From Candidatus Woesearchaeota archaeon (GTDB lineage Archaea; Nanobdellota; Nanobdellia; Woesearchaeales; JAHWIC01): 64,000 bases of DNA. Location of the stretch: NCBI GenBank assembly GCA_019322485.1, contig JAHWIK010000015.1, forward strand, positions 23,216 to 87,215, read 5' to 3'. The notes beneath the pieces are model-generated. The model was not told the origin of the DNA. It saw only the letters and a program-made list of their open reading frames with translations, and did no database searches. Below, in pieces: positions 13,295 through 52,700 of the stretch. The position numbers were made by a program, and so were the translations under genes. Position 1 is the stretch's first letter. Each line of letters starts with the position of its first letter.

Positions 13295-13341
13295 GCTTAG
13301 AAATCAAAGATTTCTGGCTCATTGAAATTCGGTGAATTTCA

Positions 13342-13527
13342 ATGAAGAAAAAGGTATGCAAGGAATGCAAGATATTTGTTGAAGGCAATGTATGTCCTGT
13401 TTGCAAAGGTAATCAGTTTTCTCCAAATTGGCAGGGTAGATTGCATATTCTTGACGCAGATAAGTCAATAGTAGCAAAGAAAGTAGGGCTAAAGGTACAC
13501 GGCGAGTATGCAATAAAGGTAAGGTGA
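13342..13527 (+). CDS. spt4: RNA polymerase subunit E'' / transcription elongation factor Spt4
   Basis: 61-aa Zn-ribbon 'CKECKIFVEGNVCPVCKG'; conserved position between rpoE and S24e. Confidence 0.75.
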   Translation: MKKKVCKECKIFVEGNVCPVCKGNQFSPNWQGRLHILDADKSIVAKKVGLKVHGEYAIKVR

Positions 13528-24838: not shown

Positions 24839-26016
24839 TTTTTCTTCCTCTTTTTAGGCTTTAGTTTCTTTATCATTATTATCAATGCTGCAGCTATAAT
24901 AGCTAAGGCAACTGCCACATACAACAATGGAGATACCTTTCTTTCTGCTTCGTGCAGCTCTATTGTAAACTCCCTTTCAAAGGTTTTATCTTTATAGTAA
25001 GCCTTTGCCTTTAGTTCATAAGATCCAAGCTCCAGCTCATGCGCTTCCCAATGAAGCCTTACAGAGCTGTTCCTGTTTGGTTCGATATCAATCCTGTTTG
25101 CTTCCATAGCTGCAATTACTGTGCCATTCCTGATAATATCTGCAGTCAGGTTAACATCCTCAAGCTCTTTATTCCAGTTTGACCCTAAGAACATATTTAT
25201 CCTGTTGATTTTATCAACAACAGCAGTTCTTGTTCCTAAGAAAATCAGCACCCCTTCTTCACCAATCCTAAAACTTCCAGTTTCTTCTACTGCTTTTCCG
25301 GAAAACTTAATGATTGATTCTGCATCATACTCACCAGGCTTGAACAGGAACTTCTTTATGGTTAATTGGTTTTCATGACTTTTTCCAGGCTCAATAGTAA
25401 ATGTTGCTTTTGGCAGGGATAGTATCTTCTTCTCTGTATTTCCCAGAATCTTATAACCAAGCACTACATCATGGAATCCATTTACAAGTGCAGCTTTGTA
25501 CAGGCTTGCAACTTTCTCTTTATTCTCATATATGTTAAGGTCATTCTCTATTCCTCCAATTGTTATTGCGCCTTTGTTTTCCATTACTGTTGTAAATTTC
25601 ATAAGATATTGGCTGTCATCAATAACCAAAAGCTCTGTTTTAAGGTATTCCTCAGGATACGGAACAAATAAATTAACCGTATGATGTACTGATGGCTTTG
25701 TTGTTACTGTTCCTGAACCTGCTGGTTCTTCATATACAACTATCTTAGCCTGATGCTCGCCAGGCCCGAAAGGCCCTGATAGGTTAAAGCTGAATTCTTT
25801 TGGGCCTATTACAACCCCTTCACGCGCAATCTCCACGTCAAGCTCACCTTCAACACCAATTGTAATCCTTGTTGGAAGGTTTGATGAAGGTATAACTGTA
25901 AAAACACCTGAATGCTCTTTATTCCCAAAGAAATCTGTCTTTGCGGGCATTGCCCCTAAAGCAAACACAGCGTCTATTGAAAGCACCAATATAATAAATA
26001 AAATCCATTTTTTCAT
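24835..26016 (-). CDS. secreted protein with an N-terminal signal peptide and a C-terminal TM anchor plus KKRKKK tail (393 aa)
   Basis: Signal 'MKKWILFIILVLSIDAVFALG'; C-terminal 'PLLYVAVALAIIAAALIIMIKKLKPKKRKKK'; start overlaps the giant gene's stop. Confidence 0.45.
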   Translation of the reverse strand: MKKWILFIILVLSIDAVFALGAMPAKTDFFGNKEHSGVFTVIPSSNLPTRITIGVEGELDVEIAREGVVIGPKEFSFNLSGPFGPGEHQAKIVVYEEPAGSGTVTTKPSVHHTVNLFVPYPEEYLKTELLVIDDSQYLMKFTTVMENKGAITIGGIENDLNIYENKEKVASLYKAALVNGFHDVVLGYKILGNTEKKILSLPKATFTIEPGKSHENQLTIKKFLFKPGEYDAESIIKFSGKAVEETGSFRIGEEGVLIFLGTRTAVVDKINRINMFLGSNWNKELEDVNLTADIIRNGTVIAAMEANRIDIEPNRNSSVRLHWEAHELELGSYELKAKAYYKDKTFEREFTIELHEAERKVSPLLYVAVALAIIAAALIIMIKKLKPKKRKKK

Positions 26017-29000: not shown

Positions 29001-32000
29001 GTTTTGTGTGCTGTTGCAGCCAGTTGGTGAGCATGTATAGTTTTCCCGGCCAGGGCAGGCAGAATTGTTATAACAGCTGTAATCATTGCAGTCACCATCT
29101 TGCAGGTAGGTGTTTGCTCCAAAGTGGTATTGATATGATGCATTTGTCCATCCAGGGTTCTGCATCTGGCTGATGTAATAATCCTGGTCATTATCAAAAA
29201 CATCTGTACAGTTTCTTTCAATAATTAATTCACAGTTTTGTCCTGACGGGCCGATAGCTGTATCATTGCAGTCTTGGTCATATCTATAGCTGTCATAAGC
29301 AATAGCATACGGCCAGAATTGGTTTGGAGTGAGACCATATGCATAATAGATGCAGTCTATTCCGCCTGATAGGTTTTCCACTCTGTTTGAATCTAATAAA
29401 TAATCAGTTATGTTGTAGACATACCTGTCTAGGTCATTGTCAACTCCATCAGTGCACAATGATGCTGTTTCTGTTGTAGGGCATGCAGAGTCATTTGCAC
29501 AGTCATAATCATCACAATCATAGCCGCCAGAGGCGCTTGTCCTATTCCCGCCAGGATTGTATGCATTATCTAAGTCATTGTCATAACCATCTGTACAGTT
29601 TATCTCGTGGCCTAGCTCACATTTTCCAGGACCCATATCAACACCATCACAGTCTGCATCAGGGTAGTGGTTTCCATCATAGTTATATCTGCAGTCCATT
29701 CCACCGCCATACTGGTTGTTTGTTGCACTATATTGTGTTCCTGTCCAGCCGGTTATTGTATAATAATCAAGGTCATTATCCTTGTTGTCAGAACAGTTTG
29801 CTCCATCATTTTCCCAATAGTTTGTTACATTGCATGTTGATTGGCAGTCATACTCTCCATGTGCAATGTTGCTTCCACCTGCACCATATTGATAATTTGG
29901 GTTTGTTGTTGAGGCTCCTGTTGAGGTCGTATTGCAGTCAAGTTCCCCATCCTGGTCATTATCAAATCCATCTGAGCAGCTTGTTTCAAAGATTAATTGG
30001 CATGTTCCTGCTGGCAATACAGAACTATTGCAGTCTATATCATACTCTACCATCCTGCAGTCAGCTCCTGCTCCTGGCAAGCCCGAGTAAAAGTCTAGGT
30101 CATTGTCCTTTCCGTCAATGCATGTTATTCCTGACTCATTTATGGGACAGTTTGAATCATTGAAACAATCATATTCTCCATGAGGATAAGTTCCTCCACC
30201 AGAATAGGTTGACCTGGGGTTAGTTGGATTGCTTAAGTACTGGATTACCCCGCCTGTAAAGAATGCTGTTGTGTTGCAGTCAAATGCTCTGTCACGGTCA
30301 TTATCAAACAAGTCATTACATATTGTTTCTACCCCTAATTCGCATGTGCCATTGATTCCTCCAACATTATAGCTGAGCCAGCTTGAGTTTAGGATGTATG
30401 TGTTGTTGCAGTCAGTGTCCCATGTACCTGCATTATAATGGCAGTCTGTATCACCATCATCGTCATTGTCAAAGCCGTCTGTGCAGGAGTTATTTGTTGC
30501 AGCATATTTGCTTTCATTCTGGTAAGCGCATAAAGGATAGGTTCCGTCAGGGTTTGCCGATGTTGAACCAATATAAGCGTCGCAATCAATGTCAATACAG
30601 TCTGTTGTATAATCCAAGTCATTGTCATATGAGTCTGCACAAGATATATCATGTTCATCTCTTACGCCGTCATCTGAAATATTTATGTTAAATTTAAAGT
30701 CATATGCTGAACCATTAAATATCCTGTTCAAGACTAAGCCATACATTCCATAGAAGTTGTTTGTTGTATTCATCATTGCTTTTAGGACATTATCTAATGT
30801 GCTTTGGGTGTAAGGTGTTGGGTCAGAAGGAGGATTTGGGCCAGACTGGGCAATTATTGAGTTAGCACTTGTTGTTTTTCCGCTTAGACCGGTTGTTGCG
30901 GAGTAGTTTAATATCCAGAAATCACCAGGGTTTTCCTGCCATAATGATGTATTGAACTGCCACACCTTGAAATAAGCTGTATAGCCTGTTATTTGCGAGG
31001 TTTGATACAGCCTCATACTAAACAATGCTTCTGGCTGTATCTTGTATGTGTAAGTGACTGCTGTGTTCGATGCTGTTCCAGTGCATAAGTTTGGTGCGCA
31101 TGAAGCATCACAGGTTCCACCGTCTATGCATTGAAGTGACCCATCTAAATCACCTGGGTCATATGGCGGGTCATCTCTCCAGCCAGCTGCTGTTTTGTTG
31201 CAAGTCCATGCAGGAGTGCCCTGCTTGTTTGTATTAGAGCCCCCTACAATATAATATTCTCCGTAGACAATTGAAGCGCAGTCTGAATCCTCACAATCTA
31301 TTTTACCATCTCCATCATCATCTGCATTATTAGCACAGTGCGTCTCCACAACGTCAGGGGTATTCTTTTTCTTTATTGAGAAGTCAACGTCTTTTGCACC
31401 ATAATAATATGATGAGTCTGCGGGATTATAGAAAACACTTGAACAGGTGTTGTTTTCAAGGAAGTAGTTTGAGTTATCTACGCCGGCTGCACAGTTTGCT
31501 GCCCTGGTCACATAACCTACATACCATGCATAGTTGAGGGCAGCTTTACCCTCGTAGAAAGCAAGTTGCACTGTTCCGTTTAATCTTCTGCCAGATGTTA
31601 CAGGTATTGTGCATGTCCTGTGGCATTCTTCACCAACAGGGCATGTTGAATCCTCAGAGTTATTGACATTAGTCACTGTATTGCTTTGGCTTATTGTATA
31701 GGATATAGAGTAATTATTTCCTGCTGTGTTGGTAACTGTTTCTGCTCCATCTGCATAGTTCGAGTCCATGCAGGAGAAATTAGCTTTTAGGTTTTCGATT
31801 ATTCCTTCTCCGATTACTGTCAGATTTATTACTGAACCATCTTCGTAGAACACCCTTCTCCTGTAATTATTTGAGGTATCTGCCACTCTCAACAGGAAGA
31901 ATCCTACTGTTCCTGATGAGCTAGCTCCTCCTGTTATTTCTGTAATAGATGATAACTCTTTTCCATCAGGGATTATGAAGAAGTTTAGTGAACTGACAAG

Positions 32001-32063
32001 TAAGAGGATAATACAAAGTACTAATTTAATAATTTCAGATATCTTTTTTGTTTTATCTTTCAT
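26013..32063 (-). CDS. giant (2016 aa) cell-surface protein with ~14 MopE-like putative metal/Ca-binding repeats (C[ST]DGxDND[LQD]D...DC); N/T/S/D/G/Y-rich with many N-glycosylation sequons
   Basis: Uninterrupted 6051-nt ORF. N-terminal signal-anchor 'IIKLVLCIILLLVSSLNFFIIP'. Repeated motifs such as 'CTDGFDNDDDGDTDC', 'CSDGFDNDQDGELDC', 'CTDGYDNDLDN' and 'CANNADDDGDGKIDCEDSDC'. Almost no K/R/E in the mature region. Confidence 0.7.
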   Translation of the reverse strand: MKDKTKKISEIIKLVLCIILLLVSSLNFFIIPDGKELSSITEITGGASSSGTVGFFLLRVADTSNNYRRRVFYEDGSVINLTVIGEGIIENLKANFSCMDSNYADGAETVTNTAGNNYSISYTISQSNTVTNVNNSEDSTCPVGEECHRTCTIPVTSGRRLNGTVQLAFYEGKAALNYAWYVGYVTRAANCAAGVDNSNYFLENNTCSSVFYNPADSSYYYGAKDVDFSIKKKNTPDVVETHCANNADDDGDGKIDCEDSDCASIVYGEYYIVGGSNTNKQGTPAWTCNKTAAGWRDDPPYDPGDLDGSLQCIDGGTCDASCAPNLCTGTASNTAVTYTYKIQPEALFSMRLYQTSQITGYTAYFKVWQFNTSLWQENPGDFWILNYSATTGLSGKTTSANSIIAQSGPNPPSDPTPYTQSTLDNVLKAMMNTTNNFYGMYGLVLNRIFNGSAYDFKFNINISDDGVRDEHDISCADSYDNDLDYTTDCIDIDCDAYIGSTSANPDGTYPLCAYQNESKYAATNNSCTDGFDNDDDGDTDCHYNAGTWDTDCNNTYILNSSWLSYNVGGINGTCELGVETICNDLFDNDRDRAFDCNTTAFFTGGVIQYLSNPTNPRSTYSGGGTYPHGEYDCFNDSNCPINESGITCIDGKDNDLDFYSGLPGAGADCRMVEYDIDCNSSVLPAGTCQLIFETSCSDGFDNDQDGELDCNTTSTGASTTNPNYQYGAGGSNIAHGEYDCQSTCNVTNYWENDGANCSDNKDNDLDYYTITGWTGTQYSATNNQYGGGMDCRYNYDGNHYPDADCDGVDMGPGKCELGHEINCTDGYDNDLDNAYNPGGNRTSASGGYDCDDYDCANDSACPTTETASLCTDGVDNDLDRYVYNITDYLLDSNRVENLSGGIDCIYYAYGLTPNQFWPYAIAYDSYRYDQDCNDTAIGPSGQNCELIIERNCTDVFDNDQDYYISQMQNPGWTNASYQYHFGANTYLQDGDCNDYSCYNNSACPGRENYTCSPTGCNSTQNWCLDSIDNDLDNYLSDGINLSTAAGAGIDCAWNNYDSDCNNTYINDSGNIGLCTIRWEYNCSDGVDNDQDLGTYYVGESGSAHAGANTGEDCDDYNCYAVQESGLYVCTDDGSGLSIVEQTCNDTLDNDLDAYTWNGTEYETNDASGTDCGDPDCNGLLGPGDILCALFEEMYFDPFDDTLCGDYNSSGTTAYSMDNDGDNLANCYDTGCYHQGLCRVCPPEENVTLDSCMDGLNNEYEYQDEYISKTNYDPNEINASLNDGVYDCRDSDCDGIVGVWSTSQGICNSASAGTGYRTTESACTDSYDNDFDNSVDCEDSDCSSGASCLAPYTNSLAACTLKCSDAAAVSYIGGEPPDYSVNTNWGGGTPDLTYTEYHWRGKNLTFTFTDSATNVNGKTIQIYLGSASATYVPLDYEMNASNSGIYGTDSGNFNVQYSAQSGYHYQAVLIEYSGAYPNQILNLTFWITVPDNDTIVQNSSFSYYVSTSIGGVEQNADVTQYILETEPPQAPVFVKTTPADDDYTTSRLRMIKTDNTVTRLSASDTVYVRVNATDSGTWNSGVELCQFNDGTGWVNETSAYDCRYALTLSDGLNTIYARAVDGVGNIGPNTSLTIDVRTLPKQTTGFFCIDTNCSTSYPTKDYYVPTETLNVAVNFTSTYGFTANASGCVVYAEKNSPGSRISLGSVPLASTGMCNGTVSLSGLSEGYYTVEVELRDDNDTRTVSGELPWSNGNSKENIWVCDYTQTYNGYTCKDACEREEANRPSKVILKSPESGNTTTELRPTFTWYNATYNGSTTAKYEIEIDDSPIFTSLDYSRGNLSEGSNNETSHTLISDLELDKTYFWRVRAYHSIISGEWSDVWNFTLSSYIAINLTRDVVDFGVVIPGFSESTEDDSPLPLLLENVGNLIVNISINATDLFETVPNPNESYQFAIGVNESGSFTSATTTLTPMPSNSTPAIYNLNWEDASDTAEIDLNATVPLLEPSGQKNSTILVRTT

Positions 32064-33996: not shown

Positions 33997-35889
33997 ATGG
34001 TTAAAGAGGAGTTAGATAGAAGTCACTTTCTTGATTTAGTCAGTAGTCCGAAGGATTTGAGGCTGTTGAATAAGCAGCAGTTAGATATGCTTGCTGAGGA
34101 ATTAAGAAGGCTAATAATTGAAACTGTAAGCAAGACAGGCGGCCACTTAGCGTCCAGCCTTGGTGTTATTGAATTAACTATTGCTTTGCATTATGTTTTT
34201 GACTCACCAAATGACAAGATAGTATGGGATGTTGGACATCAGGCTTATGCACATAAGCTGTTAACAGGAAGAAAAAATAAGTTCCATACCTTAAGGCAGC
34301 ACAAGGGCATAGCTGGTTTTCCAAAATCAAAGGAGAGCCCTCACGATGCCTTTGATACTGGACACAGCTCAACAGCAATATCAGCAGCTTTAGGAATAGC
34401 AGCTGCTCGCGATTTAAAGCATGAAAAAAACAAGGTGATAGCTGTTATTGGAGACGGAGCTTTAACTGGCGGAATGTCTTTTGAAGCCTTAAATCATGCT
34501 GGCTCATTAAAGAAAGACCTCATAGTAATCCTTAATGATAATGAGATGTCAATAAGCAAGAATGTAGGTGCTTTATCCTCTTATCTTTCAAAGCTGGTAT
34601 CAAAGCCTGGTTATGTCGACAGAAGAAAGAAAGTAGAAAGGATTTTAAGGGGGATACCTGGCCTGAGAAGGCAGGCTGCTAAGGTTTTTGGAATCGAGGA
34701 TACAATAAGGGCTTTAGCAGCTACAACTCCTGGCCTGATATTCAGGGAGCTTGGTTTTAGGTATTTTGGACCTGTTGATGGCCATAATATCGAGCAGATG
34801 ATAAAAACATTAGAGAACATAGAACAGCTTAAAGGTCCTATATTGCTTCATGTCATAACAAAAAAAGGGAAAGGCTATAGCTATGCAGAAGCTGACAGGA
34901 CAAGGTTTCATGGCATTGCGCCATTCAACATAGAGAATGGTGAAAAGAAGCACAAGAGCAGCGTTACATACACAACAGCATTCTCAAGATGTTTGACAAA
35001 GCTTGCAAAGCAGGACAAAAGGGTAGTTGCAATAACAGCAGCAATGAAGCCTGGAACAGGATTAGACCAGTTTGCAGGAATGTTTCCAGACAGGTTATTT
35101 GACGTCGGCATAGCAGAGCAGCATGCAGTTACATTTGCAGCTGGCTTGGCTAAGAACGGCTATAAGCCGGTATGCGCGATTTATTCTACTTTCCTGCAAA
35201 GGGCTTATGACCAGATTGTGCACGATGTTTGTTTGCAGAACCTGCCTGTTGTCTTTGCAATTGATAGAGCTGGCTTGGTCGGAGAGGACGGACCAACACA
35301 TCATGGAAGTTTTGATTTATCTTATCTGAGGCATATACCAAACATGACTGTAATGGCTCCAAAGGACGAGAATGAACTGGGGCATATGCTAAAAACAGCT
35401 TTAGAGATTGACGGGCCGGTTGCAGTAAGATACCCAAGAGGTACGGGCTTGGGGGTTGCAATACAGAACCCATACCACCCAATAGAATTAGGAAAAGCAG
35501 AAGTAATGCAGAAAGGAAAAGATTTGGCAATATTAGCAGTTGGTTCTTGCGTTGATATGGCGAATAAGGCTGCTGAGAAACTGGGGAAGAATAAAATAAA
35601 TGCAACCGTTGTTAATGTAAGGTTTGTAAAGCCTCTGGACGAGAAACTAATACTGAACCTAGCAAAGAAACACAGGAAACTGATTACTATAGAGGAGAAT
35701 GCATTAGATGGCGGTTTTGGTTCTGGTGTGCTGGAATTGTTGGAGCAGTATAACACCAAGGCAACGGTAAAAAGAATTGGAATACCTGATAAATTTGTAG
35801 AGCACGGTTCAATGTCAATCTTAAGAGAAAAAATTGGATTAACTGAGGATAATATAGTGAAGGAAGCGAAGTCGTTGATGGCAAAATGA
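33997..35889 (+). CDS. dxs: 1-deoxy-D-xylulose-5-phosphate synthase
   Basis: Signature 'GGHLASSLGVIELTIALHYVFDSPNDKIVWDVGHQAYAHKLLTGR', ThDP-binding 'GDGALTGGMSFEALNHAG', 630 aa. Confidence 0.9.
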   Translation: MVKEELDRSHFLDLVSSPKDLRLLNKQQLDMLAEELRRLIIETVSKTGGHLASSLGVIELTIALHYVFDSPNDKIVWDVGHQAYAHKLLTGRKNKFHTLRQHKGIAGFPKSKESPHDAFDTGHSSTAISAALGIAAARDLKHEKNKVIAVIGDGALTGGMSFEALNHAGSLKKDLIVILNDNEMSISKNVGALSSYLSKLVSKPGYVDRRKKVERILRGIPGLRRQAAKVFGIEDTIRALAATTPGLIFRELGFRYFGPVDGHNIEQMIKTLENIEQLKGPILLHVITKKGKGYSYAEADRTRFHGIAPFNIENGEKKHKSSVTYTTAFSRCLTKLAKQDKRVVAITAAMKPGTGLDQFAGMFPDRLFDVGIAEQHAVTFAAGLAKNGYKPVCAIYSTFLQRAYDQIVHDVCLQNLPVVFAIDRAGLVGEDGPTHHGSFDLSYLRHIPNMTVMAPKDENELGHMLKTALEIDGPVAVRYPRGTGLGVAIQNPYHPIELGKAEVMQKGKDLAILAVGSCVDMANKAAEKLGKNKINATVVNVRFVKPLDEKLILNLAKKHRKLITIEENALDGGFGSGVLELLEQYNTKATVKRIGIPDKFVEHGSMSILREKIGLTEDNIVKEAKSLMAK

Positions 35890-36923
35890 GAAGCAAAACA
35901 AAAGAAATCAGGATTGGAAAACTGAAGATTGGCGGAGATAATCCTATTGCAATACAGTCAATGACTAATACTGATACAAAAGACGAGGAAGCAACAATAA
36001 AACAGATTCATGAGCTAGAGGAGAATGGCTGCGAGATAGTTAGGGTTTCTGTTCCTGACAAGGAATCGTTGCTTTCATTAAGAGCAATAAAAGAAAACAT
36101 AAGCATTCCATTGGTTGCTGATATTCATTTTGACCATAAATTAGCTGTAGAAGCTGCAAGGATTGCAGACAAGATAAGGATTAACCCAGGAAATATTGGG
36201 AAAGAGAACCTGAAAGAGGTTGTTGATGCTGTTATGGATTCAAATATTCCGATGAGGGTGGGGATTAACCTAGGTTCTTTGGAAAAAGACATTGAGAAGA
36301 AGTTTGGCCTTACTGCATTAGGTATGGTTGAGAGCGCAATGAGGTCTGTGAAAGAGATAGAAAGGCTTGGCTTCTACAATATGGTTATTTCATTAAAGGC
36401 TTCTGATGTGTTAAAGACAATAGAAGCTTACAGATTGTTTTCACAGAGGTCACAATACCCTTTACACGTCGGTATAACCGAGTCTGGGAGCAGTTTTACA
36501 GGAACTGTTAATTCATCAGTTGGAATTGGAGCTTTATTATTGCAGGGAATTGGAGATACAATCCGCGTTTCATTATCAGCTGAGCCTGTTGAAGAGGTTA
36601 AAGTTGGCTGGCAGATTCTGAAAGCACTTAGGCTTAGGAAGAGGGGGATTGACATAACAAGCTGCCCAACGTGCGCAAGAAAAGGCATAGATGTTATCAA
36701 TATTGTCAAGGAGCTTGAGCAAAGAACCTCAAAAATGAACAAGCCTTTGCATATTGCAGTTATGGGCTGCGGTGTTAATGGTCCAGGAGAAGCTAAAGAA
36801 GCTGATATTGGTGTTGTCGGCGGAAAAGGAAATGTTTTGCTTTACAAGAATGGAATGATGGTCGGCAATATTGAGGGAGATGTTCTTGAAAGGTTGATGA
36901 AGGAGATAGAGAATTCAAAATGA
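35886..36923 (+). CDS. ispG: 4-hydroxy-3-methylbut-2-en-1-yl diphosphate synthase (GcpE/IspG)
   Basis: 'IRIGKLKIGGDNPIAIQSMTNTDTKD' N-terminal TIM-barrel signature; C-terminal [4Fe-4S] ligands 'CPTCAR...MGCGVNGPGE'; start overlaps the dxs stop. Confidence 0.9.
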   Translation: MRSKTKEIRIGKLKIGGDNPIAIQSMTNTDTKDEEATIKQIHELEENGCEIVRVSVPDKESLLSLRAIKENISIPLVADIHFDHKLAVEAARIADKIRINPGNIGKENLKEVVDAVMDSNIPMRVGINLGSLEKDIEKKFGLTALGMVESAMRSVKEIERLGFYNMVISLKASDVLKTIEAYRLFSQRSQYPLHVGITESGSSFTGTVNSSVGIGALLLQGIGDTIRVSLSAEPVEEVKVGWQILKALRLRKRGIDITSCPTCARKGIDVINIVKELEQRTSKMNKPLHIAVMGCGVNGPGEAKEADIGVVGGKGNVLLYKNGMMVGNIEGDVLERLMKEIENSK

Positions 36924-38305
36924 GCTGGAAATTAATCACATTAAAACAGTATCCGATGTTCTCGAGATGGTGGATACATGAAGCGTTTCTCCACGATATG
37001 AAAGATACTTTAGGTATGAATTTTAAAATGTACAAATCGCTCTATAGCGGGACTTATGCTGATAGTGATGAGGTTGAAAAGTTAAGGTCTATGTTAATAT
37101 CTAAACTTGAAAAAGATATTGATTCAATTAGGAAATTATGTGAGAATTGGAAACATGATTGTGATGAGCTTATTAGATTTACAAAAGAATTAGAAAAATC
37201 GGACTTCTCAAAAAACTCTGATGAGGAATTAGTTAATTTATCAGAGAATTGCATTAAAAAATTAAGAAGAAGCGCTTCATATATTTATCTGTCAGTTGTT
37301 TTGGATGAATATTTTCAGAATTGGCTGAATAAAATACTTGAAGCTAAGGTTCAGGACCAGAATGAGAGGACAAAATACTTCCAAATTCTTACATCTCCAA
37401 CAAAAAATACTAAATTAATTGACGCTAAGAAGGTATTAATTGAGATTTCTAAAGTTGTTAAAGAGAAAGGTCTTGAGGGAGCAGAGGACTTAATCAAAGA
37501 TTATGTATCTAAATTTAAATGGCTTGGATATGATACTGGAATTGGAAGTGATTTAACTATAGAACAAACAAAGGATAAGATTTCTAATATTCTTGAGCAA
37601 AAACAGCACGACTCTGATGTTAAAAATAGGGATGAGGTCTTGTCTGAGTTGGATCTCAATGAAAAAGATAAAGAATTACTTGACTTGATGGACGAACTTA
37701 TTTTCCTAAGGACTTATAGGGCTGAAAGCAATATGGTTGCAGGAGCTGATATAAGGCCTATTCTTGAAGAACTTGCAAAAAGAGCCAATACAAATTATGA
37801 TAATCTAGTTCAATTAACCATTGATGAAATAAAAGACTCAATAAAGTCAAAAAAAGTAGACTTGAAGAAGATTGAGGAGAGAAAGAATAAGTATGGCTTG
37901 TTAATGGTCGATGGAAAGAATACAATCTACAGTGGAGATGAAGTGGATAAAGTAGAGGAAAAGGTTGAAGTTCCTGAAGGATTGACAGAGTTAAAAGGAT
38001 TAGTAGCACACCATGGAAATAAGAGGGGCCATGTTAAGATTGTTTTGAGGCATAAAGACTTTGATAAGATTGAATTTGGAGATATTTTGGTAACAAAGAT
38101 GACTAATCCTGATTTTATAGTTGTTTTAGAACAGTGTTCTGGAATAATTACAGACATTGGAGGGATAACCTCTCATGCAGCGATTGTTGCACGAGAACTA
38201 AACAAGCCATGCATTACAGGAACTCAATATGCTACAAAAGTCTTGAAAGATGGTGACTTAGTTGAGCTTGATACAGATAAAGGCATTGTAAAGATAATAA
38301 AATGA
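36920..38305 (+). CDS. PEP-utilising-enzyme mobile (phosphohistidine swivel) domain protein with a ~340-aa helical N-terminal region of unknown function
   Basis: C-terminal 'GIITDIGGITSHAAIVARELNKPCITGT' is the PpsA/PPDK/rifampin-phosphotransferase His-domain signature. There is no ATP-grasp or PEP-binding TIM-barrel domain. Start and stop overlap ispG and ispDF by 4 nt each. Confidence 0.6.
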   Translation: MSWKLITLKQYPMFSRWWIHEAFLHDMKDTLGMNFKMYKSLYSGTYADSDEVEKLRSMLISKLEKDIDSIRKLCENWKHDCDELIRFTKELEKSDFSKNSDEELVNLSENCIKKLRRSASYIYLSVVLDEYFQNWLNKILEAKVQDQNERTKYFQILTSPTKNTKLIDAKKVLIEISKVVKEKGLEGAEDLIKDYVSKFKWLGYDTGIGSDLTIEQTKDKISNILEQKQHDSDVKNRDEVLSELDLNEKDKELLDLMDELIFLRTYRAESNMVAGADIRPILEELAKRANTNYDNLVQLTIDEIKDSIKSKKVDLKKIEERKNKYGLLMVDGKNTIYSGDEVDKVEEKVEVPEGLTELKGLVAHHGNKRGHVKIVLRHKDFDKIEFGDILVTKMTNPDFIVVLEQCSGIITDIGGITSHAAIVARELNKPCITGTQYATKVLKDGDLVELDTDKGIVKIIK

Positions 38306-39453
38306 ACATAGCAATCATAACAGCAGCTGGAAAAGGAACAAGGATGAATGAAAAAGTCAATAAAATATTGTTATCTTTAGTCGATAAATCAATAATTGAA
38401 GAAACAATCGAGGTTTTTGAGGCGTGTAAAGATATTGATGAGATAATTATTGTTGGAAACAGCGATGATATTGAATCATTAAACAAAATCAATGAAAAAA
38501 ATAATTATAAAAAAATTAAAAAAATCATTGAAGGCGGAGAACAACGGCAGGATTCAGTGTTTAATGGAATAAAATCCATTGAAAATGCGAGTAATGATGA
38601 TATTTTATTGATTCATAATGGTGCAAACCCCCTTGTAGACGAGAAAACGATTCTTGAATGTATTAAAGAAGCAAAGGAGCATGGGGCAGCTGTTGCTGCA
38701 ATGCCTGCAAAAGATACAATAAAACAGGTTGAGAATGGTTTTGTTGCTAAAACATTGGATAGAAAGCAGCTCTGGCAGATGCAGACACCGCAAACAATCC
38801 AGTTTGGGCTTGCGAAAGAGGCTTTTGAAAAGGCATTTGCTGATAATTTCTATGGAACTGATGATGTTGGGCTTGTAGAAAGGCTTGGAAAAAAGGTTAA
38901 GATTGTTGAGTGCAATACTGAGAACGTAAAAATCACAACAAAGAATGATTTAGAACAAGCAAGACTCTTGCTTAATGCTTCTGTTGTTGGAATCGGACAG
39001 GATTCCCACAAATTTACCGACGAGAAAAAGGATTTAGTTTTGGGTGGTGTAGTAATTCCAAATGAGCAGGGCTTAGAAGCAAACTCTGATGGTGATGTCA
39101 TCCTGCATGCCTTGTTTAATGCTTTAAGCCAGGCAGCTGGAGAAAAATCATTGGGAAATTATGCAGATTCAATGTGTGAGAATGGAATAAAAGACAGCAG
39201 AGAGTATCTAAGAGTGATTTTAGACATAATCAACAAGAAAAATTACAAGATAAATAATGTTGGCTTTATGATAGAAGCAAAAAAGCCAAGGCTAGGGGCT
39301 AATGAAGACAGAATAAAAGAGAATATTGCAAATTTATTGGGAATAACTAAAGATAAAGTTGGAATAACAGCAACCTCAGGAGAGGAATTAACTCCATTTG
39401 GCCAGGGCAAGGCAATACAGGTATTTTCAGTTGCAAGCTTAACAAGAAAATAA
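38302..39453 (+). CDS. ispDF: bifunctional IspD/IspF (MEP cytidylyltransferase / MEcPP synthase)
   Basis: N-terminal 'MNIAIITAAGKGTRM' (IspD); C-terminal 'GIGQDSHKFTD' and 'SDGDVILHALFNALSQAAG' (IspF metal/CDP-binding motifs). Confidence 0.9.
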   Translation: MNIAIITAAGKGTRMNEKVNKILLSLVDKSIIEETIEVFEACKDIDEIIIVGNSDDIESLNKINEKNNYKKIKKIIEGGEQRQDSVFNGIKSIENASNDDILLIHNGANPLVDEKTILECIKEAKEHGAAVAAMPAKDTIKQVENGFVAKTLDRKQLWQMQTPQTIQFGLAKEAFEKAFADNFYGTDDVGLVERLGKKVKIVECNTENVKITTKNDLEQARLLLNASVVGIGQDSHKFTDEKKDLVLGGVVIPNEQGLEANSDGDVILHALFNALSQAAGEKSLGNYADSMCENGIKDSREYLRVILDIINKKNYKINNVGFMIEAKKPRLGANEDRIKENIANLLGITKDKVGITATSGEELTPFGQGKAIQVFSVASLTRK

Positions 39454-39474
39454 TGAAAATCAAAGATTTTCAGT

Positions 39475-40344
39475 ATGTCAAAAACCAAGGTTTTTAACAT
39501 GATCCAGCTAAAAGCACACGCAAAGATAAACCTGACCTTAGATGTACTTGCAAGGCTGGATGACGGCTATCATCGGATAGAATCTATAAAACAGCAGGTT
39601 GGTTTGCACGATAAAATCTCATTAGGGCCATTGGATGATATAAAGGTAATCTGCAGCCATCCTAACATAACCACAAAAGAAAATCTTGTCTTTAAAACAG
39701 CATTGTTGCTAAAAAATGAATTTAATGTAGCAGAGGGAGCGAAGATAACAATAGAAAAAAATATTCCATTAGCTGCTGGCTTGGCTGGAGGCTCATCAGA
39801 CGCAGCAGCAACCCTGGTAGGATTAAACAAGCTTTGGAAACTTGAGCTTGATGAGCAGGAACTGACAAAATTAGCTGCAGAGATTGGAATGGATGTTCCT
39901 TTTTCTGTTGTTGGCGGTTCTTGTTTTGCAGAGGGCAAAGGCACTAAACTAAGCAGGATAGAGCTGCCTGAGATGCATGTGCTGTTAATCAACCCTGGTT
40001 TTGAAGTCTCTACAAGAACAGCTTACCAAAGCCTTGACTTGTCAAGAACAGGAAAGGCAATGGCAACAAAGAAACTATTGGAAGTAAGGAACATGGGTGT
40101 GAGAGAAATATCAAAGGTCATGCATAATGACTTTGAAGCTGTGGTGCTGGGGAAGCATTCTATTCTGAAAGAGATAAAGGGCAAATTAATGGAGAATAAT
40201 GCCTTGAATGCAATAGTATCTGGCTCAGGGCCAACTGTTTTTGGCTTGTTTGAGGATGAATCAACTATAAGCAAGGCTTACGAATCTCTTAAAGAAACTT
40301 ATCCATTTGTATTCATGACAAAAACAGTAGCGAGGAAAGAATGA
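39475..40344 (+). CDS. ispE: 4-diphosphocytidyl-2-C-methyl-D-erythritol kinase (GHMP kinase)
   Basis: 'AHAKINLTLDV' and GHMP motif 'PLAAGLAGGSSDAAATLVGLNKLW'. Confidence 0.85.
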   Translation: MSKTKVFNMIQLKAHAKINLTLDVLARLDDGYHRIESIKQQVGLHDKISLGPLDDIKVICSHPNITTKENLVFKTALLLKNEFNVAEGAKITIEKNIPLAAGLAGGSSDAAATLVGLNKLWKLELDEQELTKLAAEIGMDVPFSVVGGSCFAEGKGTKLSRIELPEMHVLLINPGFEVSTRTAYQSLDLSRTGKAMATKKLLEVRNMGVREISKVMHNDFEAVVLGKHSILKEIKGKLMENNALNAIVSGSGPTVFGLFEDESTISKAYESLKETYPFVFMTKTVARKE

Positions 40345-41153
40345 GAATTAAAAAAGCAAAGCACTCTGGATTTTGTTTTGGTGTTAAGAGGGCAGTAGAG
40401 TCAGCGCTGGGCACAGAGGGGGAAGTAAAGACATTAGGCCCATTAATACATAATCCTCAGTTTATAGCAGAGCTTGAGAAAAAGGGAATAAAATCTGTTG
40501 ATTCTGTCGATGAGGTTGAAAAAGGCTCTTTGATAATAAGGGCGCATGGTGTCCCGGATTCTGTTATAGAAAAGGCCAGGGGAAAAGGGCTTAATGTAAC
40601 TGATTTAACATGTCCTTTTGTCAGGAAGGTGCATGATTATGCTAAGGAATTCTACAAACAAGGCTATAGTGTGGTTGTGGTTGGAGAGAAAAACCATCCT
40701 GAGGTTGTAGGAATAATTGGCAACATTGATGGTATTGTTGTGGGCAATGCAGATGATGCAAGGAAACTTGGCAGGTTCGAAAAGATTGGAGTGGTTGCAC
40801 AAACAACACAATCACTTGAGAACTTTAACAATGTTGTTGATGAGCTGAAAAAGCATACAGATGAGTTAAAGGTACATAATACCATATGCTCTGAAACAGA
40901 TTCAAGGCAGAAACACGCTATTGAGCTGGCAAAAGAGGTTGACTTGATGATAGTTATTGGGGGGAGAAACTCTGGAAATACCAGAAGGCTTGCCCAGCTT
41001 TGCTCTAAATTAACTGAAACAAAGCATATTGAGTCTGAGGATGAGTTAAAGGAGGGGTGGTTTGCAGGCAAGGGTTGTGTTGGGATAACAGCTGGCGCTT
41101 CAACACCGGACAGCACAATCAAGAAGATTGAGGATAGAATCAGGGAGATATGA
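40341..41153 (+). CDS. ispH: 4-hydroxy-3-methylbut-2-enyl diphosphate reductase (LytB/IspH)
   Basis: 'HSGFCFGVKRAVE', 'LTCPFVRKVH', 'ICSETDSRQ' and 'VIGGRNSGNTRRL' LytB motifs. Confidence 0.85.
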   Translation: MRIKKAKHSGFCFGVKRAVESALGTEGEVKTLGPLIHNPQFIAELEKKGIKSVDSVDEVEKGSLIIRAHGVPDSVIEKARGKGLNVTDLTCPFVRKVHDYAKEFYKQGYSVVVVGEKNHPEVVGIIGNIDGIVVGNADDARKLGRFEKIGVVAQTTQSLENFNNVVDELKKHTDELKVHNTICSETDSRQKHAIELAKEVDLMIVIGGRNSGNTRRLAQLCSKLTETKHIESEDELKEGWFAGKGCVGITAGASTPDSTIKKIEDRIREI

Positions 41154-41157
41154 GATT

Positions 41158-42246
41158 ATGGAATTCATACAAGCAGTAGGGCAATACAAGGGAATAGTCA
41201 ATAAGACTTTAAGCACGTTCTTTGATAATCATATCAATAAAACACAGGATGGCTTTCTAAAATTTAATTATTCTACACTTAGGGATTATGTTTTGCGGGA
41301 CGGCAAGAGATTAAGGCCAATCACACTGATAATGGCTTACAAGTCAATAACTGATAATGATGAGCAGAAGATTTACATGCCTTCTTTGAGTATGGAACTG
41401 TTCCATGCTTCCTCATTAATACATGATGATATAATGGATGAGGATGATTTAAGGAGGGGAAAAGAGAGCATGCATACCCTGTTTAACCAGTGGTTTGTTG
41501 ATAATCACGGCCAGGCAGGCTATAATGGGCCTATATTTAACCAGTTATCTACTAAGTTTGGGGTTTCTATGGCAATACTGCAGGGAAATATACTGATTGC
41601 TTTAGGTGAGTCCTGCTTGTCAGGCTCCTCATTTGCCCCGGAACAGATAAAGGCTGCTTTAATGGTGTGCAATAACACAAACAAGGTAGTTAATGAAGGC
41701 CAGATACAGGACATTGTTCTGGAGACAAAGAGGGAGTTTACTGAAAATGATTATTTGAGTATGATTGCTAAGAAAACAGGCAAATTATTCAGCACATCTC
41801 TTGAGATAGGTGCAGTATTTGCAGGTGCAACAGATTCTCAGAGAAAAGCGCTTGATAATTATGCATTATCTGCAGCAACAACATTCCAGATACAGGACGA
41901 TATAATGGACATAAGCCCTGATATGAAAAAGGGGCATGAGGTTGGCTCTGATATAAAGCAGGGAAAAAGAACCTTGCTTGTTATGAAGGCCCTGGAAAAA
42001 GGGGATGAAGGCCAAAAAAAGGTTTTGTTTGATGCTCTTGGCAATGAGAAAGCAACACCAGAAGAAATAGAGATTGCTATCGATGTTATGCACGCTACAG
42101 GGGCAGTTGATTATGCAAAGAATCTTGCAGCTGATATGATTAAGAAAGGAAAGGATGCGCTTAAGGAAGCAGACCCTGCTTTATCTTCTGATGGATTGAA
42201 GTTCTTTAATGATTTAGCAGATTATATGGTAAATAGAAATGTCTAG
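41158..42246 (+). CDS. idsA: trans-polyprenyl diphosphate synthase (probable GGPP synthase); start moved to the Met after the ispH stop
   Basis: FARM 'LIHDDIMDEDDLRRGKES' and SARM 'FQIQDDIMD'; last gene of the MEP cluster. Confidence 0.8.
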   Translation: MEFIQAVGQYKGIVNKTLSTFFDNHINKTQDGFLKFNYSTLRDYVLRDGKRLRPITLIMAYKSITDNDEQKIYMPSLSMELFHASSLIHDDIMDEDDLRRGKESMHTLFNQWFVDNHGQAGYNGPIFNQLSTKFGVSMAILQGNILIALGESCLSGSSFAPEQIKAALMVCNNTNKVVNEGQIQDIVLETKREFTENDYLSMIAKKTGKLFSTSLEIGAVFAGATDSQRKALDNYALSAATTFQIQDDIMDISPDMKKGHEVGSDIKQGKRTLLVMKALEKGDEGQKKVLFDALGNEKATPEEIEIAIDVMHATGAVDYAKNLAADMIKKGKDALKEADPALSSDGLKFFNDLADYMVNRNV

Positions 42247-43244: not shown

Positions 43245-43382
43245 AGTATCACCTTTAGTCTATTTTATTTGGAAACAAATGAGAATTCATTTTGTCTCCA
43301 GTATAAGCGAGCCATTATTGACCTGCTTATCTCTCGATATAATATAGGAATGATAATTGGTTTAAAAACCTTACTATATGAA

Positions 43383-43554
43383 GAAATAATCAATAGCCCC
43401 GGGCAGATTCGAACTGCCGTCCCCGGCTGTTTTCGATGGAAATCGCAAAACTGTTGGAAATCTTTGATTTCCACCACCAAAAGCAGGGATGATTTGTCGG
43501 AAATCGGAGATTTCTGAGCAAATTGAAAATCTCCGATTTTCAATTGACCACTAC
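43383..43554 (-). tRNA. tRNA-like gene (acceptor AGCCCCG/CGGGGCU-A, canonical D-loop start, canonical T-arm GGCAG-UUCGAAU-CUGCC) interrupted by ~100 nt of structured insert; isotype unresolved (5' end resembles archaeal tRNA-Gln)
   Basis: Hand reverse-complement gives a 7-bp acceptor stem, 'UAGUGUAGUGGUC' D-region and a perfect T-arm. The 99 nt in between contain long hairpins with recurring GAAAUC/GAUUUC motifs. A contiguous anticodon arm could not be placed. Confidence 0.4.
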
Positions 43555-43644
43555 ACTACGGGGCTCTAAAGCTAAGAAACTCCTCGCGAATATATAAAAG
43601 TTGTGATAAACTAAATCAAAAATTATTTATACCAGTGTTTTAGA

Positions 43645-52584: not shown

Positions 52585-52700
52585 TGCCCCTGCCGAGAAT
52601 CGAACTCGGGTCTTCAGGTTTTTGCAAAATTGCCGCAACCTAATATTCTTTTTGGCTATGCCGAACCTTGTTCAGCAAGTATCCACTATACTACAGGGGC
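52585..52700 (-). tRNA. intron-containing tRNA (116 nt; acceptor GCCCCUG/CAGGGGC-A, canonical T-arm CCGAG-UUCGAUU-CUCGG); anticodon not confidently assigned
   Basis: Hand fold gives a 7-bp acceptor, a D-arm with GG in the loop, an intact T-arm and ~40 extra nt containing a BHB-like hairpin (AGGUUGC...GCAAAAACCU). Confidence 0.5.

What the first reader, a model, noticed from the sequence alone, without database searches (positions are those of the whole stretch)
43383..43554. tRNA-like gene with perfect acceptor, D-region and T-arm but ~100 nt of structured insert and no contiguous anticodon arm
The 5' 21 nt (AGCCCCGUAGUGUAGUGGUCA, resembling archaeal tRNA-Gln) and the 3' 27 nt (GGCAG-UUCGAAU-CUGCC-CGGGGCU-A) are canonical. 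The middle 99 nt form long hairpins (AUCGGAGAUUU...AAAUCUCCGAU; GGAAAUC-AAA-GAUUUCC). This could be a tRNA with two or three introns or a permuted/split-type arrangement, both known in DPANN and Nanoarchaeota, or a tRNA gene disrupted by a small structured insertion element.
Basis: seen in the sequence. Interest (0 to 1): 0.5.

Follow-up and report, generated by a model that had tools for sequence, protein, structure and literature searches.

The report
Two-intron glutamine tRNA gene
This is an ordinary glutamine tRNA gene of a tiny (DPANN-type) archaeon, interrupted by two short protein-spliced introns; that hides it from standard tRNA finders, but the arrangement is already known in archaea.

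Summary
The tRNA-like sequence is real. It is a tRNA-Gln(UUG) gene cut into three exons (22, 16 and 35 nt) by two introns.

- **Intron 1:** 51 nt, in the D-loop (21/22), with a relaxed bulge-helix-bulge (BHB) motif.
- **Intron 2:** 48 nt, at the canonical 37/38 site, with a perfect BHB motif.

Removing both gives a 73-nt cloverleaf that ARAGORN calls tRNA-Gln(UUG). It is 69/73 identical to uninterrupted tRNA-Gln genes.

The closest relative found is a Woesearchaeota MAG with the same gene order. Its exons are near-identical, it lacks the 48-nt insert exactly at the predicted junction, and its D-loop intron is only 21 nt. Nine D-loop introns parsed in other genomes sit at the same place, and all keep a GGUC:GAC(C/U/A)-type helix with both cuts 2 nt 3' of it.

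The split/permuted and mobile-insertion options are not.

One U29·C41 mismatch, and the absence of RNA data or a splicing endonuclease gene in the window, leave function inferred.

The two introns resemble each other, which hints at intron duplication. This is a new member of a known kind, of modest interest.

The parts
43394..43565 (-). Whole tRNA-Gln(UUG) gene (172-nt precursor body; precursor position p = 43566 - coordinate). No CCA is encoded.
   Evidence: ARAGORN with introns allowed reports a gene at exactly c[43394,43565].
43544..43565 (-). Exon 1 (pos 1-22): acceptor 5' strand AGCCCCG, U8 A9, D-stem 5' strand GUGU, D-loop AGUGGUCAA.
   Evidence: Identical to the first 22 nt of 91 uninterrupted tRNA-Gln genes.
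43493..43543 (-). Intron 1 (pos 23-73, 51 nt) in the D-loop (21/22 by the BHB rule; sequence alone allows 20/20a to 22/23). Relaxed BHB: central helix G18-C70, U19-A69, C20-G68 (G17·A71 mismatched); cuts after A22 and A73, each 2 nt 3' of the helix; 14-bp distal helix A27-U40 : G52-U65.
   Evidence: Homologous introns in L099 and L124 (0 and 1 of 3000 shuffles reach the score).
43477..43492 (-). Exon 2 (pos 74-89, 16 nt): UCAU (D-stem 3' strand), C26, CCUGC (anticodon-stem 5' strand), UUUUGG (positions 32-37).
   Evidence: Aligns to ATCATTCCGGCTTTTGG of the syntenic ortholog L023.
43478..43480 (-). Anticodon UUG (pos 86-88).
   Evidence: ARAGORN on the spliced product, and on the precursor lacking intron 1. 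All top brute-force solutions give UUG.
43429..43476 (-). Intron 2 (pos 90-137, 48 nt) at canonical 37/38. Strict BHB: central helix U84-U87 : G132-A135; bulges G88 G89|U90 and A136 C137|A138; distal 10-bp helix G91-C100 : G122-C131; outer helix is the anticodon stem.
   Evidence: (BHB score 4/4 central, 10 bp distal). Absent exactly at this junction in L023. Homologous intron in L077.
43394..43428 (-). Exon 3 (pos 138-172, 35 nt): A38, GCCGG (anticodon-stem 3' strand), variable loop GGAC, T arm GGCAG-UUCGAAU-CUGCC, acceptor 3' strand CGGGGCU, discriminator A73.
   Evidence: 35/35 identical to L023.
43591..43599 (-). TATA-box-like element TTTTATATA, 26-34 nt upstream of the mature 5' end.
   Evidence: Read directly. 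The second tRNA gene has TTTATTAAAA at a similar distance. This is an inference: no archaeal promoter tool was available.
43381..43393 (-). T-rich tract TTGATTATTTCTT immediately after the discriminator; a possible archaeal oligo-T terminator.
   Evidence: Read directly; inference only.

Best explanation
Window 43394-43565 (minus strand) is a tRNA-Gln(UUG) gene of a DPANN (Woesearchaeota-like) archaeon, split into three collinear exons by two protein-spliced (BHB) introns.

The proposed pathway, inferred from the established archaeal one, is:
1. The 172-nt region is transcribed as one precursor from a TATA-like box about 30 nt upstream.
2. The archaeal splicing endonuclease (EndA) cuts the strict BHB at 37/38, after G89 and after C137.
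3. EndA also cuts the relaxed BHB in the D-loop, after A22 and after A73.
4. An RtcB-type ligase joins the three exons into a 73-nt tRNA.
5. CCA is added post-transcriptionally. A class-I CCA-adding enzyme gene lies in the same window.

Shown here: the exon and intron layout, both BHB geometries, and orthology to less interrupted genes. Inferred: that splicing occurs, which enzyme does it, and in what order.
For: **The spliced product is a valid tRNA-Gln.**
- Joining positions 1-22, 74-89 and 138-172 gives a 73-nt cloverleaf that ARAGORN calls tRNA-Gln(ttg).
- With only intron 1 removed, ARAGORN itself finds Gln(ttg) with a 48-nt intron at the predicted site.
- Exhaustive one- and two-intron excision shows every top-ranked solution has anticodon UUG and the same 89|137 junction, with a 4/4 central helix and a 10-bp distal helix.
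- An alignment to 91 uninterrupted tRNA-Gln genes, using no structural information, recovers inserts of 51 nt (D-loop) and 48 nt (37/38).
- The product is 69/73 identical to intron-less genes. It has the commonest D-loop/D-stem sequence of that family (AGUGGUCAAUCAU, 81/91) and a 4-nt variable loop GGAC that 12/91 share.

**The syntenic ortholog confirms the junctions.**
- L023 keeps the order dph5 - membrane protein - tRNA - S15 - DUF116, with S15 83% identical.
- It has an identical exon 1 and exon 3.
- It has no insert at ...TTTTGG|AGCCGG....
- Its D-loop intron is 21 nt.

**D-loop introns recur at the same site.**
- Nine other genomes parsed for the motif carry one, and all nine pair 3-4 of 4 nt with GGUC, with both cuts 2 nt 3' of that helix.
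- L124 has a homologous intron showing the same helix.
- The three-sequence consensus fold keeps the helices, with 2 compensatory pairs.

**Homology and context.**
- Intron 2 has a homologue in L077 that retains the BHB, with a G-C to A-U change at the base of the distal helix.
- The flanking genes are archaeal: S13e/S15, S24e, L1, Rpo7 and FtsZ.
- The window encodes a CCA-adding enzyme.
- The same architecture, a D-loop HBh' intron plus a canonical intron, was cleaved in vitro in Methanopyrus kandleri pre-tRNA-Glu (PMC5829648).
Against: - There are no RNA data, so splicing is inferred.
- No EndA or RtcB gene was found among the 50 window ORFs scanned. Eight ORFs were not scanned. The enzyme type, and whether it accepts relaxed motifs, is untested.
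- The anticodon stem has a U29·C41 mismatch where L023 has G29-C41. This makes the cloverleaf about 6 kcal/mol weaker than L023's. A register-shifted helix (CCCUG/CGGGG) competes with it in the precursor.
- The BHB-compatible precursor fold is about 8 kcal/mol above the MFE.
- Intron 1's motif is relaxed: 3 bp plus a G·A mismatch, a 4-nt 5' bulge and no outer helix.
- The exact D-loop junction cannot be fixed from this sequence alone. Four equivalent cut pairs give the same product, and a 72-nt alternative scores similarly on cloverleaf rules.
- Whether the genome has another tRNA-Gln copy is unknown.
Confidence: 0.9

Rival explanations
1. It is a decaying pseudogene: a former tRNA-Gln gene inactivated by small structured insertions such as a MITE-like or palindromic element, and no longer producing a functional tRNA.
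For: - The U29·C41 mismatch is absent from the closest ortholog.
- The inserts are palindrome-rich and share the unit GAAAUC-NNN-GAUUUCC. A near copy occurs once elsewhere in the window.
- Standard finders see no gene here.
- The MFE fold of the precursor is not the BHB-competent one.
Against: - Both inserts end exactly where BHB geometry predicts.
- Exons 1 and 3 are identical to those of the syntenic ortholog, while the introns and flanks diverge.
- The locus is the conserved syntenic tRNA-Gln site next to rps15.
- 13 of 91 uninterrupted genes also carry one anticodon-stem mismatch.
- Homologous inserts sit at the same tRNA positions in other genomes.
- The extra palindrome at 13299-13315 is a simple intergenic hairpin after a stop codon.
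- No target-site duplication or other copies were seen.
Confidence: 0.06
2. It is a tRNA with a single long intron and a different identity, as ARAGORN -i proposes for the raw sequence: tRNA-Lys(UUU) with an 83-nt intron at 32/33 and a long variable arm.
For: ARAGORN -i returns this model for the unedited precursor.
Against: - The model has a D stem with only two standard pairs, G32, and an intron inside the loop at a site with no BHB.
- It needs a type-II variable arm, which tRNA-Lys does not normally have (own knowledge).
- The acceptor and D-arm are those of archaeal tRNA-Gln.
- The ortholog L023 shows the real exon junctions.
Confidence: 0.01
3. The same two-intron gene, but with the D-region junction one nucleotide different: a 52-nt intron giving a 72-nt tRNA with D-stem 3' strand ACAU. 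A further small intron is another variant.
For: Cloverleaf scoring alone ranks the 72-nt product (…GGUCAA|CAUC…) slightly higher, because ACAU pairs 4/4 with GUGU.
Against: - That junction has a 0/4 central helix.
- 81 of 91 uninterrupted genes, and all the spliced relatives with TCAT-type D stems, read GGUCAAUCAU.
- The BHB rule places both cuts at 22|23 and 73|74.
Confidence: 0.03

Closest known systems
Methanopyrus kandleri pre-tRNA-Glu(UUC), which has a relaxed HBh' intron in the D-loop plus a canonical 37/38 BHB intron (Kaneta et al. 2018, PMC5829648)
   Same: - The same two-site architecture: one D-loop intron and one canonical intron, collinear exons, and a short middle exon running from about A21 to G37.
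- The D-loop motif is relaxed and the canonical one is strict.
- Cleavage is by EndA.
   Different: - A different tRNA (Gln, not Glu) and a different phylum (DPANN, not Euryarchaeota).
- The intron sequences are unrelated.
- Here the splicing is not demonstrated and the EndA type is unknown.
Multi-intron tRNA genes and tRNA-intron transposition in Thermoproteales (Sugahara 2007/2008 and Fujishima 2010, as reviewed in Yoshihisa 2014, PMC4090602)
   Same: - Introns at non-canonical positions (20/21, 22/23, 25/26, 53/54, 56/57, 59/60 and others), with up to three per gene.
- Similar intron sequences are found at different positions, implying intron duplication or transposition.
- The interrupted tRNA-Gln genes compared here show the same three hot spots (D-loop, anticodon loop, T-loop) and intron-intron similarity.
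   Different: - The lineage is DPANN rather than Crenarchaeota.
- The similarity seen here is within one gene, or one orthologous gene family, rather than across many isoacceptors.
- The statistical support is moderate and post hoc.
Disrupted tRNA genes of DPANN archaea: split tRNAs of Nanoarchaeum equitans, ARMAN-2 introns with the epsilon2 EndA, and predicted sets for Pacearchaeota and Woesearchaeota (PMC3239211, PMC5829648)
   Same: - The same superphylum.
- The literature already notes that DPANN EndAs carry an extra loop (L3) associated with more tRNA gene disruption, and that incomplete tRNA sets point to undetected disrupted genes.
   Different: - This gene is not split or permuted. It is a plain cis-spliced two-intron gene.
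- I found no paper describing this particular tRNA-Gln D-loop intron family, but I made only two literature searches.

Membership tests
Archaeal BHB-intron-containing (multi-intron) tRNA gene | Exons, once joined, form a complete canonical cloverleaf with a 7-nt anticodon loop. | tested here: met
   ARAGORN calls the 73-nt product tRNA-Gln(ttg). It matches the intron-less family in length and architecture at 69/73. There is one U·C mismatch in the anticodon stem.
Archaeal BHB-intron-containing (multi-intron) tRNA gene | The canonical intron lies between 37 and 38 and is flanked by a strict hBHBh' motif: two 3-nt bulges, a 4-bp central helix, and cuts after the second bulge nucleotide. | tested here: met
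   Central helix UUUU:GAAA, bulges GG|U and AC|A, a 10-bp distal helix and the anticodon stem as outer helix. The junction is confirmed by the ortholog L023, which lacks the intron.
Archaeal BHB-intron-containing (multi-intron) tRNA gene | The non-canonical intron is flanked by a BHB or an accepted relaxed form (HBh', hBH or BHL). | tested here: met
   It is met in relaxed form only. The central helix is 3 bp plus a G·A mismatch, with cuts 2 nt 3' of each helix strand, a 4-nt 5' bulge and no outer helix. Relatives at the same site have the full 4-bp GGUC:GACC helix.
Archaeal BHB-intron-containing (multi-intron) tRNA gene | The host encodes a splicing endonuclease able to cut relaxed motifs, plus an RNA ligase. 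| not testable with these tools
   No tRNA_int_endo or RtcB hit among the 50 window ORFs scanned. The rest of the genome is not available.
Archaeal BHB-intron-containing (multi-intron) tRNA gene | The spliced RNA is observed. | not testable with these tools
   No transcriptome data.
Archaeal tRNA-Gln | A1-U72 first pair, AGCCCCG acceptor, anticodon YUG and discriminator A73. | tested here: met
   All are present. The 5' 21-mer retrieved more than 120 archaeal tRNA-Gln genes. That A1-U72 is a Gln hallmark is my own knowledge, not tested here.
Split or circularly permuted tRNA gene | Halves are encoded at separate loci, or the 3' half lies upstream of the 5' half. | tested here: not met
   The three exons are collinear on one strand within 172 nt.
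tRNA gene disrupted by a mobile insertion element (MITE or IS) | The insert is repeated elsewhere in the genome and has terminal inverted repeats with a target-site duplication. | tested here: not met
   The motif search found no other copy in 64 kb except one 16-nt intergenic palindrome. No target-site duplication was seen. Only the window could be searched.
Group I or group II self-splicing intron in a tRNA gene | A catalytic core more than about 200 nt long that matches the Rfam intron models. | tested here: not met
   The inserts are 51 and 48 nt. Rfam gave no hit at gathering or at E<=10 other than chance hairpin matches.

The most novel reading that the evidence does not exclude
The two introns may be paralogues. 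The canonical 37/38 intron would then be a recent copy of the D-loop intron family, or the reverse. More generally, BHB introns in these Woesearchaeota-like DPANN genomes may duplicate or move between the D-loop, anticodon loop and T-loop of the same tRNA-Gln gene. That would explain why the gene at one conserved syntenic site carries between one and three introns in the relatives seen here.

Support:
- Global alignment of intron 1 against intron 2 scores 32, against 18.3 ± 4.4 for shuffles (18 of 3000 reach it).
- The 5' 21 nt of intron 2 match the 5' 21 nt of the L124 D-loop intron (19 identical positions plus one gap; 2 of 3000).
- The D-loop and T-loop introns of L081 share an exact 17-mer.
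- The closest ortholog lacks intron 2 altogether.

The tests were chosen after looking at the sequences. AT-rich palindromes inflate similarity, so this is not established.
Probability: 0.4. Interest if true: 0.45.

Novelty: new member of a known kind. Interest (0 to 1): 0.27.

Why it matters
**Annotation.** Default ARAGORN and the Rfam gathering-threshold scan both report no tRNA in this 64-kb window. Yet it holds at least two interrupted tRNA genes. Genome surveys of DPANN archaea that report "missing" tRNAs, for example tRNA-Gln, may therefore be undercounting. Kaneta et al. 2018 already suspected this.

**Evolution.** The same syntenic tRNA-Gln locus carries different numbers and lengths of introns in related genomes. 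This gives a clean natural series for studying how BHB introns are gained, lost, shortened and possibly duplicated outside the Thermoproteales. Neither point changes what is known about the mechanism.

Tried and rejected
- **Standard finders.** Default ARAGORN and Rfam at gathering threshold found nothing in the window. Rfam at E<=10 on the locus gave only chance miRNA-type hairpin hits and an antisense partial match to the T arm.
- **ARAGORN -i on the raw precursor.** It gave a poor tRNA-Lys(UUU) model with an 83-nt intron, which I rejected.
- **Metagenome scan** with TAGTGGTCAATTRAAAATC. Of 16 hits, only L124 is a tRNA-Gln gene. The rest are chance matches with no tRNA-Gln 5' exon, and most look like coding sequence.
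- **Viral-contig scan** with the start of intron 2. All 8 hits are chance matches with no tRNA-Gln exon nearby.
- **The look-up of encoding contigs** with the S15 protein. It is not on record, so the source genome could not be extended.
- **The palindrome GAAATCNNNGATTTCC as a mobile element.** The only other copy in the window (13299-13315, one mismatch) is an intergenic hairpin after a stop codon. Rejected as a repeat family.
- **Local alignment of intron 1 against intron 2.** It was not significant (127 of 2000 and 284 of 3000 shuffles reach the score). Only the global alignment and the comparison with L124 were.
- **Strict BHB for intron 1.** Not met for any of the four equivalent junction pairs; the best is 3/4.
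- **C/D-box sRNA inside the introns.** No RUGAUGA/CUGA pair on the RNA strand, by direct reading.
- **Pfam scan of 50 of the 58 window ORFs for EndA or RtcB.** None found.
- **The second interrupted tRNA gene.** Its D-region junction could not be resolved, and no relatives were present among the fetched loci.
- **One paper lookup** (PMC6379350) held nothing on DPANN.

Full report
**1. What is in the sequence**

The tRNA-like sequence is on the minus strand. I number the precursor from A1 = 43565, so coordinate = 43566 - position.

These are the 5' part AGCCCCGUAGUGUAGUGGUCA, the T arm GGCAG-UUCGAAU-CUGCC, the 3' acceptor strand CGGGGCU with discriminator A, and both hairpins.

The precursor folds much better than dinucleotide shuffles (-65.9 against -46 ± 4.1 kcal/mol, z = -4.85). 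Default ARAGORN and Rfam at gathering threshold report no RNA gene anywhere in the window. A permissive Rfam scan of the locus gives only chance hairpin hits.

**2. Solving the exon and intron structure**

Reading the sequence against the archaeal tRNA-Gln pattern gives three exons and two introns:
- Exon 1 is positions 1-22. It holds the acceptor 5' strand, U8 A9, GUGU and the D-loop AGUGGUCAA.
- Intron 1 is positions 23-73 (51 nt).
- Exon 2 is positions 74-89, reading UCAU-C-CCUGC-UUUUGG. It holds the D-stem 3' strand, nucleotide 26, the anticodon-stem 5' strand and loop positions 32-37. The anticodon UUG is at positions 86-88.
- Intron 2 is positions 90-137 (48 nt).
- Exon 3 is positions 138-172. 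It holds A38, GCCGG, the variable loop GGAC, the T arm, the acceptor 3' strand and A73.

Three independent tests support this:
- ARAGORN calls the joined 73-mer tRNA-Gln(ttg). With only intron 1 removed, it finds Gln(ttg) with a 48-nt intron at exactly this place on its own.
- I enumerated every one- and two-intron excision that leaves a cloverleaf. All top solutions have anticodon UUG and the 89|137 junction. That junction has a perfect BHB: central helix U84-U87:G132-A135, bulges G88 G89|U90 and A136 C137|A138, a 10-bp distal helix, and the anticodon stem as outer helix.
- An alignment to 91 uninterrupted genes that uses no structural information recovers inserts of 51 nt in the D-loop and 48 nt at 37/38.

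ARAGORN -i on the raw precursor instead proposes tRNA-Lys(UUU) with an 83-nt intron and a long variable arm. That model has a D stem with only two standard pairs, G32 and no BHB, so I reject it.

**3. Comparative evidence**

Of these, 91 carry uninterrupted 73-nt tRNA-Gln genes. The predicted product is 69/73 identical to the nearest of them. It has the commonest D-loop/D-stem sequence of the family (AGUGGUCAAUCAU in 81/91), and its 4-nt variable loop GGAC is shared by 12/91.

*The syntenic ortholog.* The closest relative found is L023, a Woesearchaeota MAG. The gene order dph5-like methylase, membrane protein, tRNA, S15, DUF116 is conserved. S15 is 83% identical and the dph5-like protein 86%. 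The pairwise alignment shows:
- an identical exon 1 and exon 3;
- two substitutions in exon 2 (C26/U and U29/G);
- no sequence at all between ...TTTTGG and AGCCGG...;
- a D-loop intron of only 21 nt that keeps UCGGAGA and GACAAA.

This natural 48-nt "deletion" fixes the boundaries of intron 2. They cannot be slid, because the flanking bases differ.

*D-loop introns elsewhere.* Nine further genomes parsed for the motif (L021, L023, L025, L047, L049, L081, L099, L101) and L124 have an intron between GGUCAA and (U/G)CA(U/C). In all of them the 4 nt that precede the last two intron nucleotides pair with GGUC. The sequence is GACC, GGCC or GACU (4/4) in seven of the nine, and GACA or GGCA (3/4) in two; the window also reads GACA. 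Both cuts therefore fall 2 nt 3' of each strand of a 4-nt helix, which is the BHB rule.

From simple base-pairing odds, a random 4-mer pairs at 3 or more of 4 positions about 22% of the time, and at all 4 about 3%. This is my own arithmetic and the lineages are not fully independent.

*Homology of the introns.*
- Intron 1 is homologous to the D-loop introns of L099 and L124 (0 and 1 of 3000 shuffles reach the alignment score). The three-sequence consensus fold keeps the GGUC helix and a 13-bp distal helix, with two compensatory pairs.
- Intron 2 is homologous to the canonical intron of L077 (1 of 3000). L077 keeps the UUUU:GAAA central helix, and the base of its distal helix changes from G-C to A-U.

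**4. How it most likely works**

*Shown.* The locus has the layout and the splice-site geometry of an archaeal multi-intron tRNA gene. It sits at the conserved tRNA-Gln site beside rps15 in an archaeal gene context. The neighbours include S13e/S15, S24e, L1, an acidic ribosomal stalk protein, Rpo7 and FtsZ.

*Inferred from established archaeal tRNA processing* (PMC4090602 and PMC5829648):
1. Transcription starts from the TATA-like TTTTATATA 26-34 nt upstream.
2. The ends are matured.
3. EndA cuts at the two BHB motifs.
4. An RtcB-type ligase joins the exons.
5. CCA is added.

The gene encodes no CCA, and a class-I CCA-adding enzyme gene lies at 6557-7807 on the minus strand.

The D-loop motif in this gene is relaxed: 3 bp plus G17·A71, a 4-nt 5' bulge and no outer helix. 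It therefore needs a broad-specificity EndA. DPANN EndAs with the L3 loop are reported to be associated with increased tRNA gene disruption. No EndA or RtcB gene lies among the 50 window ORFs scanned.

**5. Caveats**

- The anticodon stem has a U29·C41 mismatch where L023 has G-C. However, 13 of 91 uninterrupted genes also carry one anticodon-stem mismatch, including A·C and U·U at 29-41.
- The mismatch weakens the cloverleaf by about 6 kcal/mol relative to L023.
- It allows a register-shifted CCCUG/CGGGG helix. With that helix, the precursor MFE lies about 8 kcal/mol below the best BHB-compatible fold.
- The D-loop junction is fixed only by comparison and by the BHB rule. Four cut pairs give the same product.
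- No RNA evidence exists.
- The source genome could not be extended.

**6. Comparison with what is known**

[quoted passage not shown] M. kandleri pre-tRNA-Glu(UUC) has the same pairing of a relaxed D-loop intron with a canonical intron, and it is cleaved in vitro. tRNA sets of Pacearchaeota and Woesearchaeota have been predicted, with the comment that undetected disrupted genes remain.

This locus is therefore a new member of a known kind. Split or permuted genes, insertion-element disruption and self-splicing introns each fail a defining test. The details are in the membership table.

**7. The one less ordinary aspect**

The two introns resemble each other:
- Their 5' ends are alike (UGAAAAUCGGAGAUUUUCAA against UGGAAAUCAAAGAUUUCCAA).
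- Both carry the unit GAAAUC-NNN-GAUUUCC.
- Their global alignment scores 32, against 18.3 ± 4.4 for shuffles (18 of 3000 reach it). Other real introns score 5.5-20.
- The start of intron 2 matches the start of the L124 D-loop intron at 19 positions with one gap over about 21 nt (2 of 3000).
- In L081 the D-loop and T-loop introns share an exact 17-mer.

Across the 27 interrupted tRNA-Gln genes (26 relatives plus the window), inserts cluster in the D-loop, the anticodon loop and the T-loop. Syntenic orthologs differ in intron number and length.

This fits intron duplication or transposition of the kind proposed for Thermoproteales. However, the tests were chosen after inspection and the sequences are AT-rich palindromes, so I rate it about 0.4.

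**8. Verdict**

The locus is a two-intron tRNA-Gln(UUG) gene (confidence 0.9), a new member of a known kind. Interest is about 0.27. Its main value is as an example of tRNA genes that routine annotation misses, and as a small window on intron turnover in DPANN archaea.

Noticed in passing
window 52585-52700 (minus strand): A second interrupted tRNA gene (116 nt) that default ARAGORN and Rfam miss. It has acceptor GCCCCUG/CAGGGGC with discriminator A, and T arm CCGAG-UUCGAUU-CUCGG. Brute-force excision gives tRNA-Arg(GCG), with anticodon arm UUAGG-UUGCGGA-CCUGA, after removing two inserts. One is a 13-nt canonical intron with a 4-bp central helix UUGC:GCAA in bulge-helix-loop form. The other is about 30 nt in the D region, and its exact junction I could not resolve (D stem only 3/4). 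ARAGORN -i miscalls it Pro(agg).
   Followed up: partly
window 13299-13315 and 13320-13343: The palindrome AGAAATCAAAGATTTCT is a 15/16 match to the hairpin unit of intron 2. It lies in the short intergenic gap after the stop codon of an Rpo7-like gene, followed by a second hairpin ATTGAAATTC-GGT-GAATTTCAAT just before the next start codon. It looks like an ordinary intergenic hairpin, not a repeat family.
   Followed up: partly
window 35886-42246 (plus strand): A run of bacterial-type MEP isoprenoid pathway genes sits on an otherwise archaeal contig: GcpE/IspG, a PEP-utilising-domain protein, an IspD-IspF fusion, a GHMP kinase (IspE-like), LytB/IspH and a polyprenyl synthetase. I did not check whether this is already documented for this lineage.
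   Followed up: no
window 6557-7807 (minus strand): A class-I (archaeal) CCA-adding enzyme gene (tRNA_NucTransf2 + CAA_C + NTP_transf_2). This is consistent with neither interrupted tRNA gene encoding CCA.
   Followed up: partly
window 43265-43543 (-) and 43269-43517 (+): Spurious ORFs of 92 and 82 aa lie across the tRNA gene. A gene caller could annotate a hypothetical protein here instead of the tRNA.
   Followed up: no
L124 8084-8251; also L076 and L040: tRNA-Gln(CUG) genes whose anticodon loop reads CCCUGGA, that is C33 instead of the near-universal U33.
   Followed up: no
L092 (566-682) and L100: In two DPANN MAGs labelled Parvarchaeota and Woesearchaeota, inserts at about 25/26 of tRNA-Gln consist of tandem repeats of the adjacent exon sequence (GCATAAGGCTC two to three times). 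This suggests intron birth by local duplication of exon sequence.
   Followed up: no
L081 6468-6653: A three-intron tRNA-Gln(CUG) gene (D-loop 47 nt, 37/38 20 nt, T-loop 46 nt). Its D-loop and T-loop introns begin with the same exact 17-mer CAAAAACAGGGTTTTTG (2 of 3000 shuffles reach the score).
   Followed up: partly
L058, L076, L097 (and L021, L028, L047, L101): Contigs carrying an archaeal tRNA-Gln are filed under bacterial MAG names (beta proteobacterium, Aminicenantes, Eggerthellaceae); L076 also carries an archaeal S15 and a dph5-like gene. Several 'Methanosarcinales' binchicken MAGs share dph5/S15 synteny with this window. These are probably mis-binned or mislabelled contigs.
   Followed up: no
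window 26013-32063 (minus strand): A very large ORF (2016 aa), flanked by ORFs with Ig-like, WxL-interacting or transglutaminase-type domains and by several ORFs with no Pfam hit. I did not analyse it.
   Followed up: no
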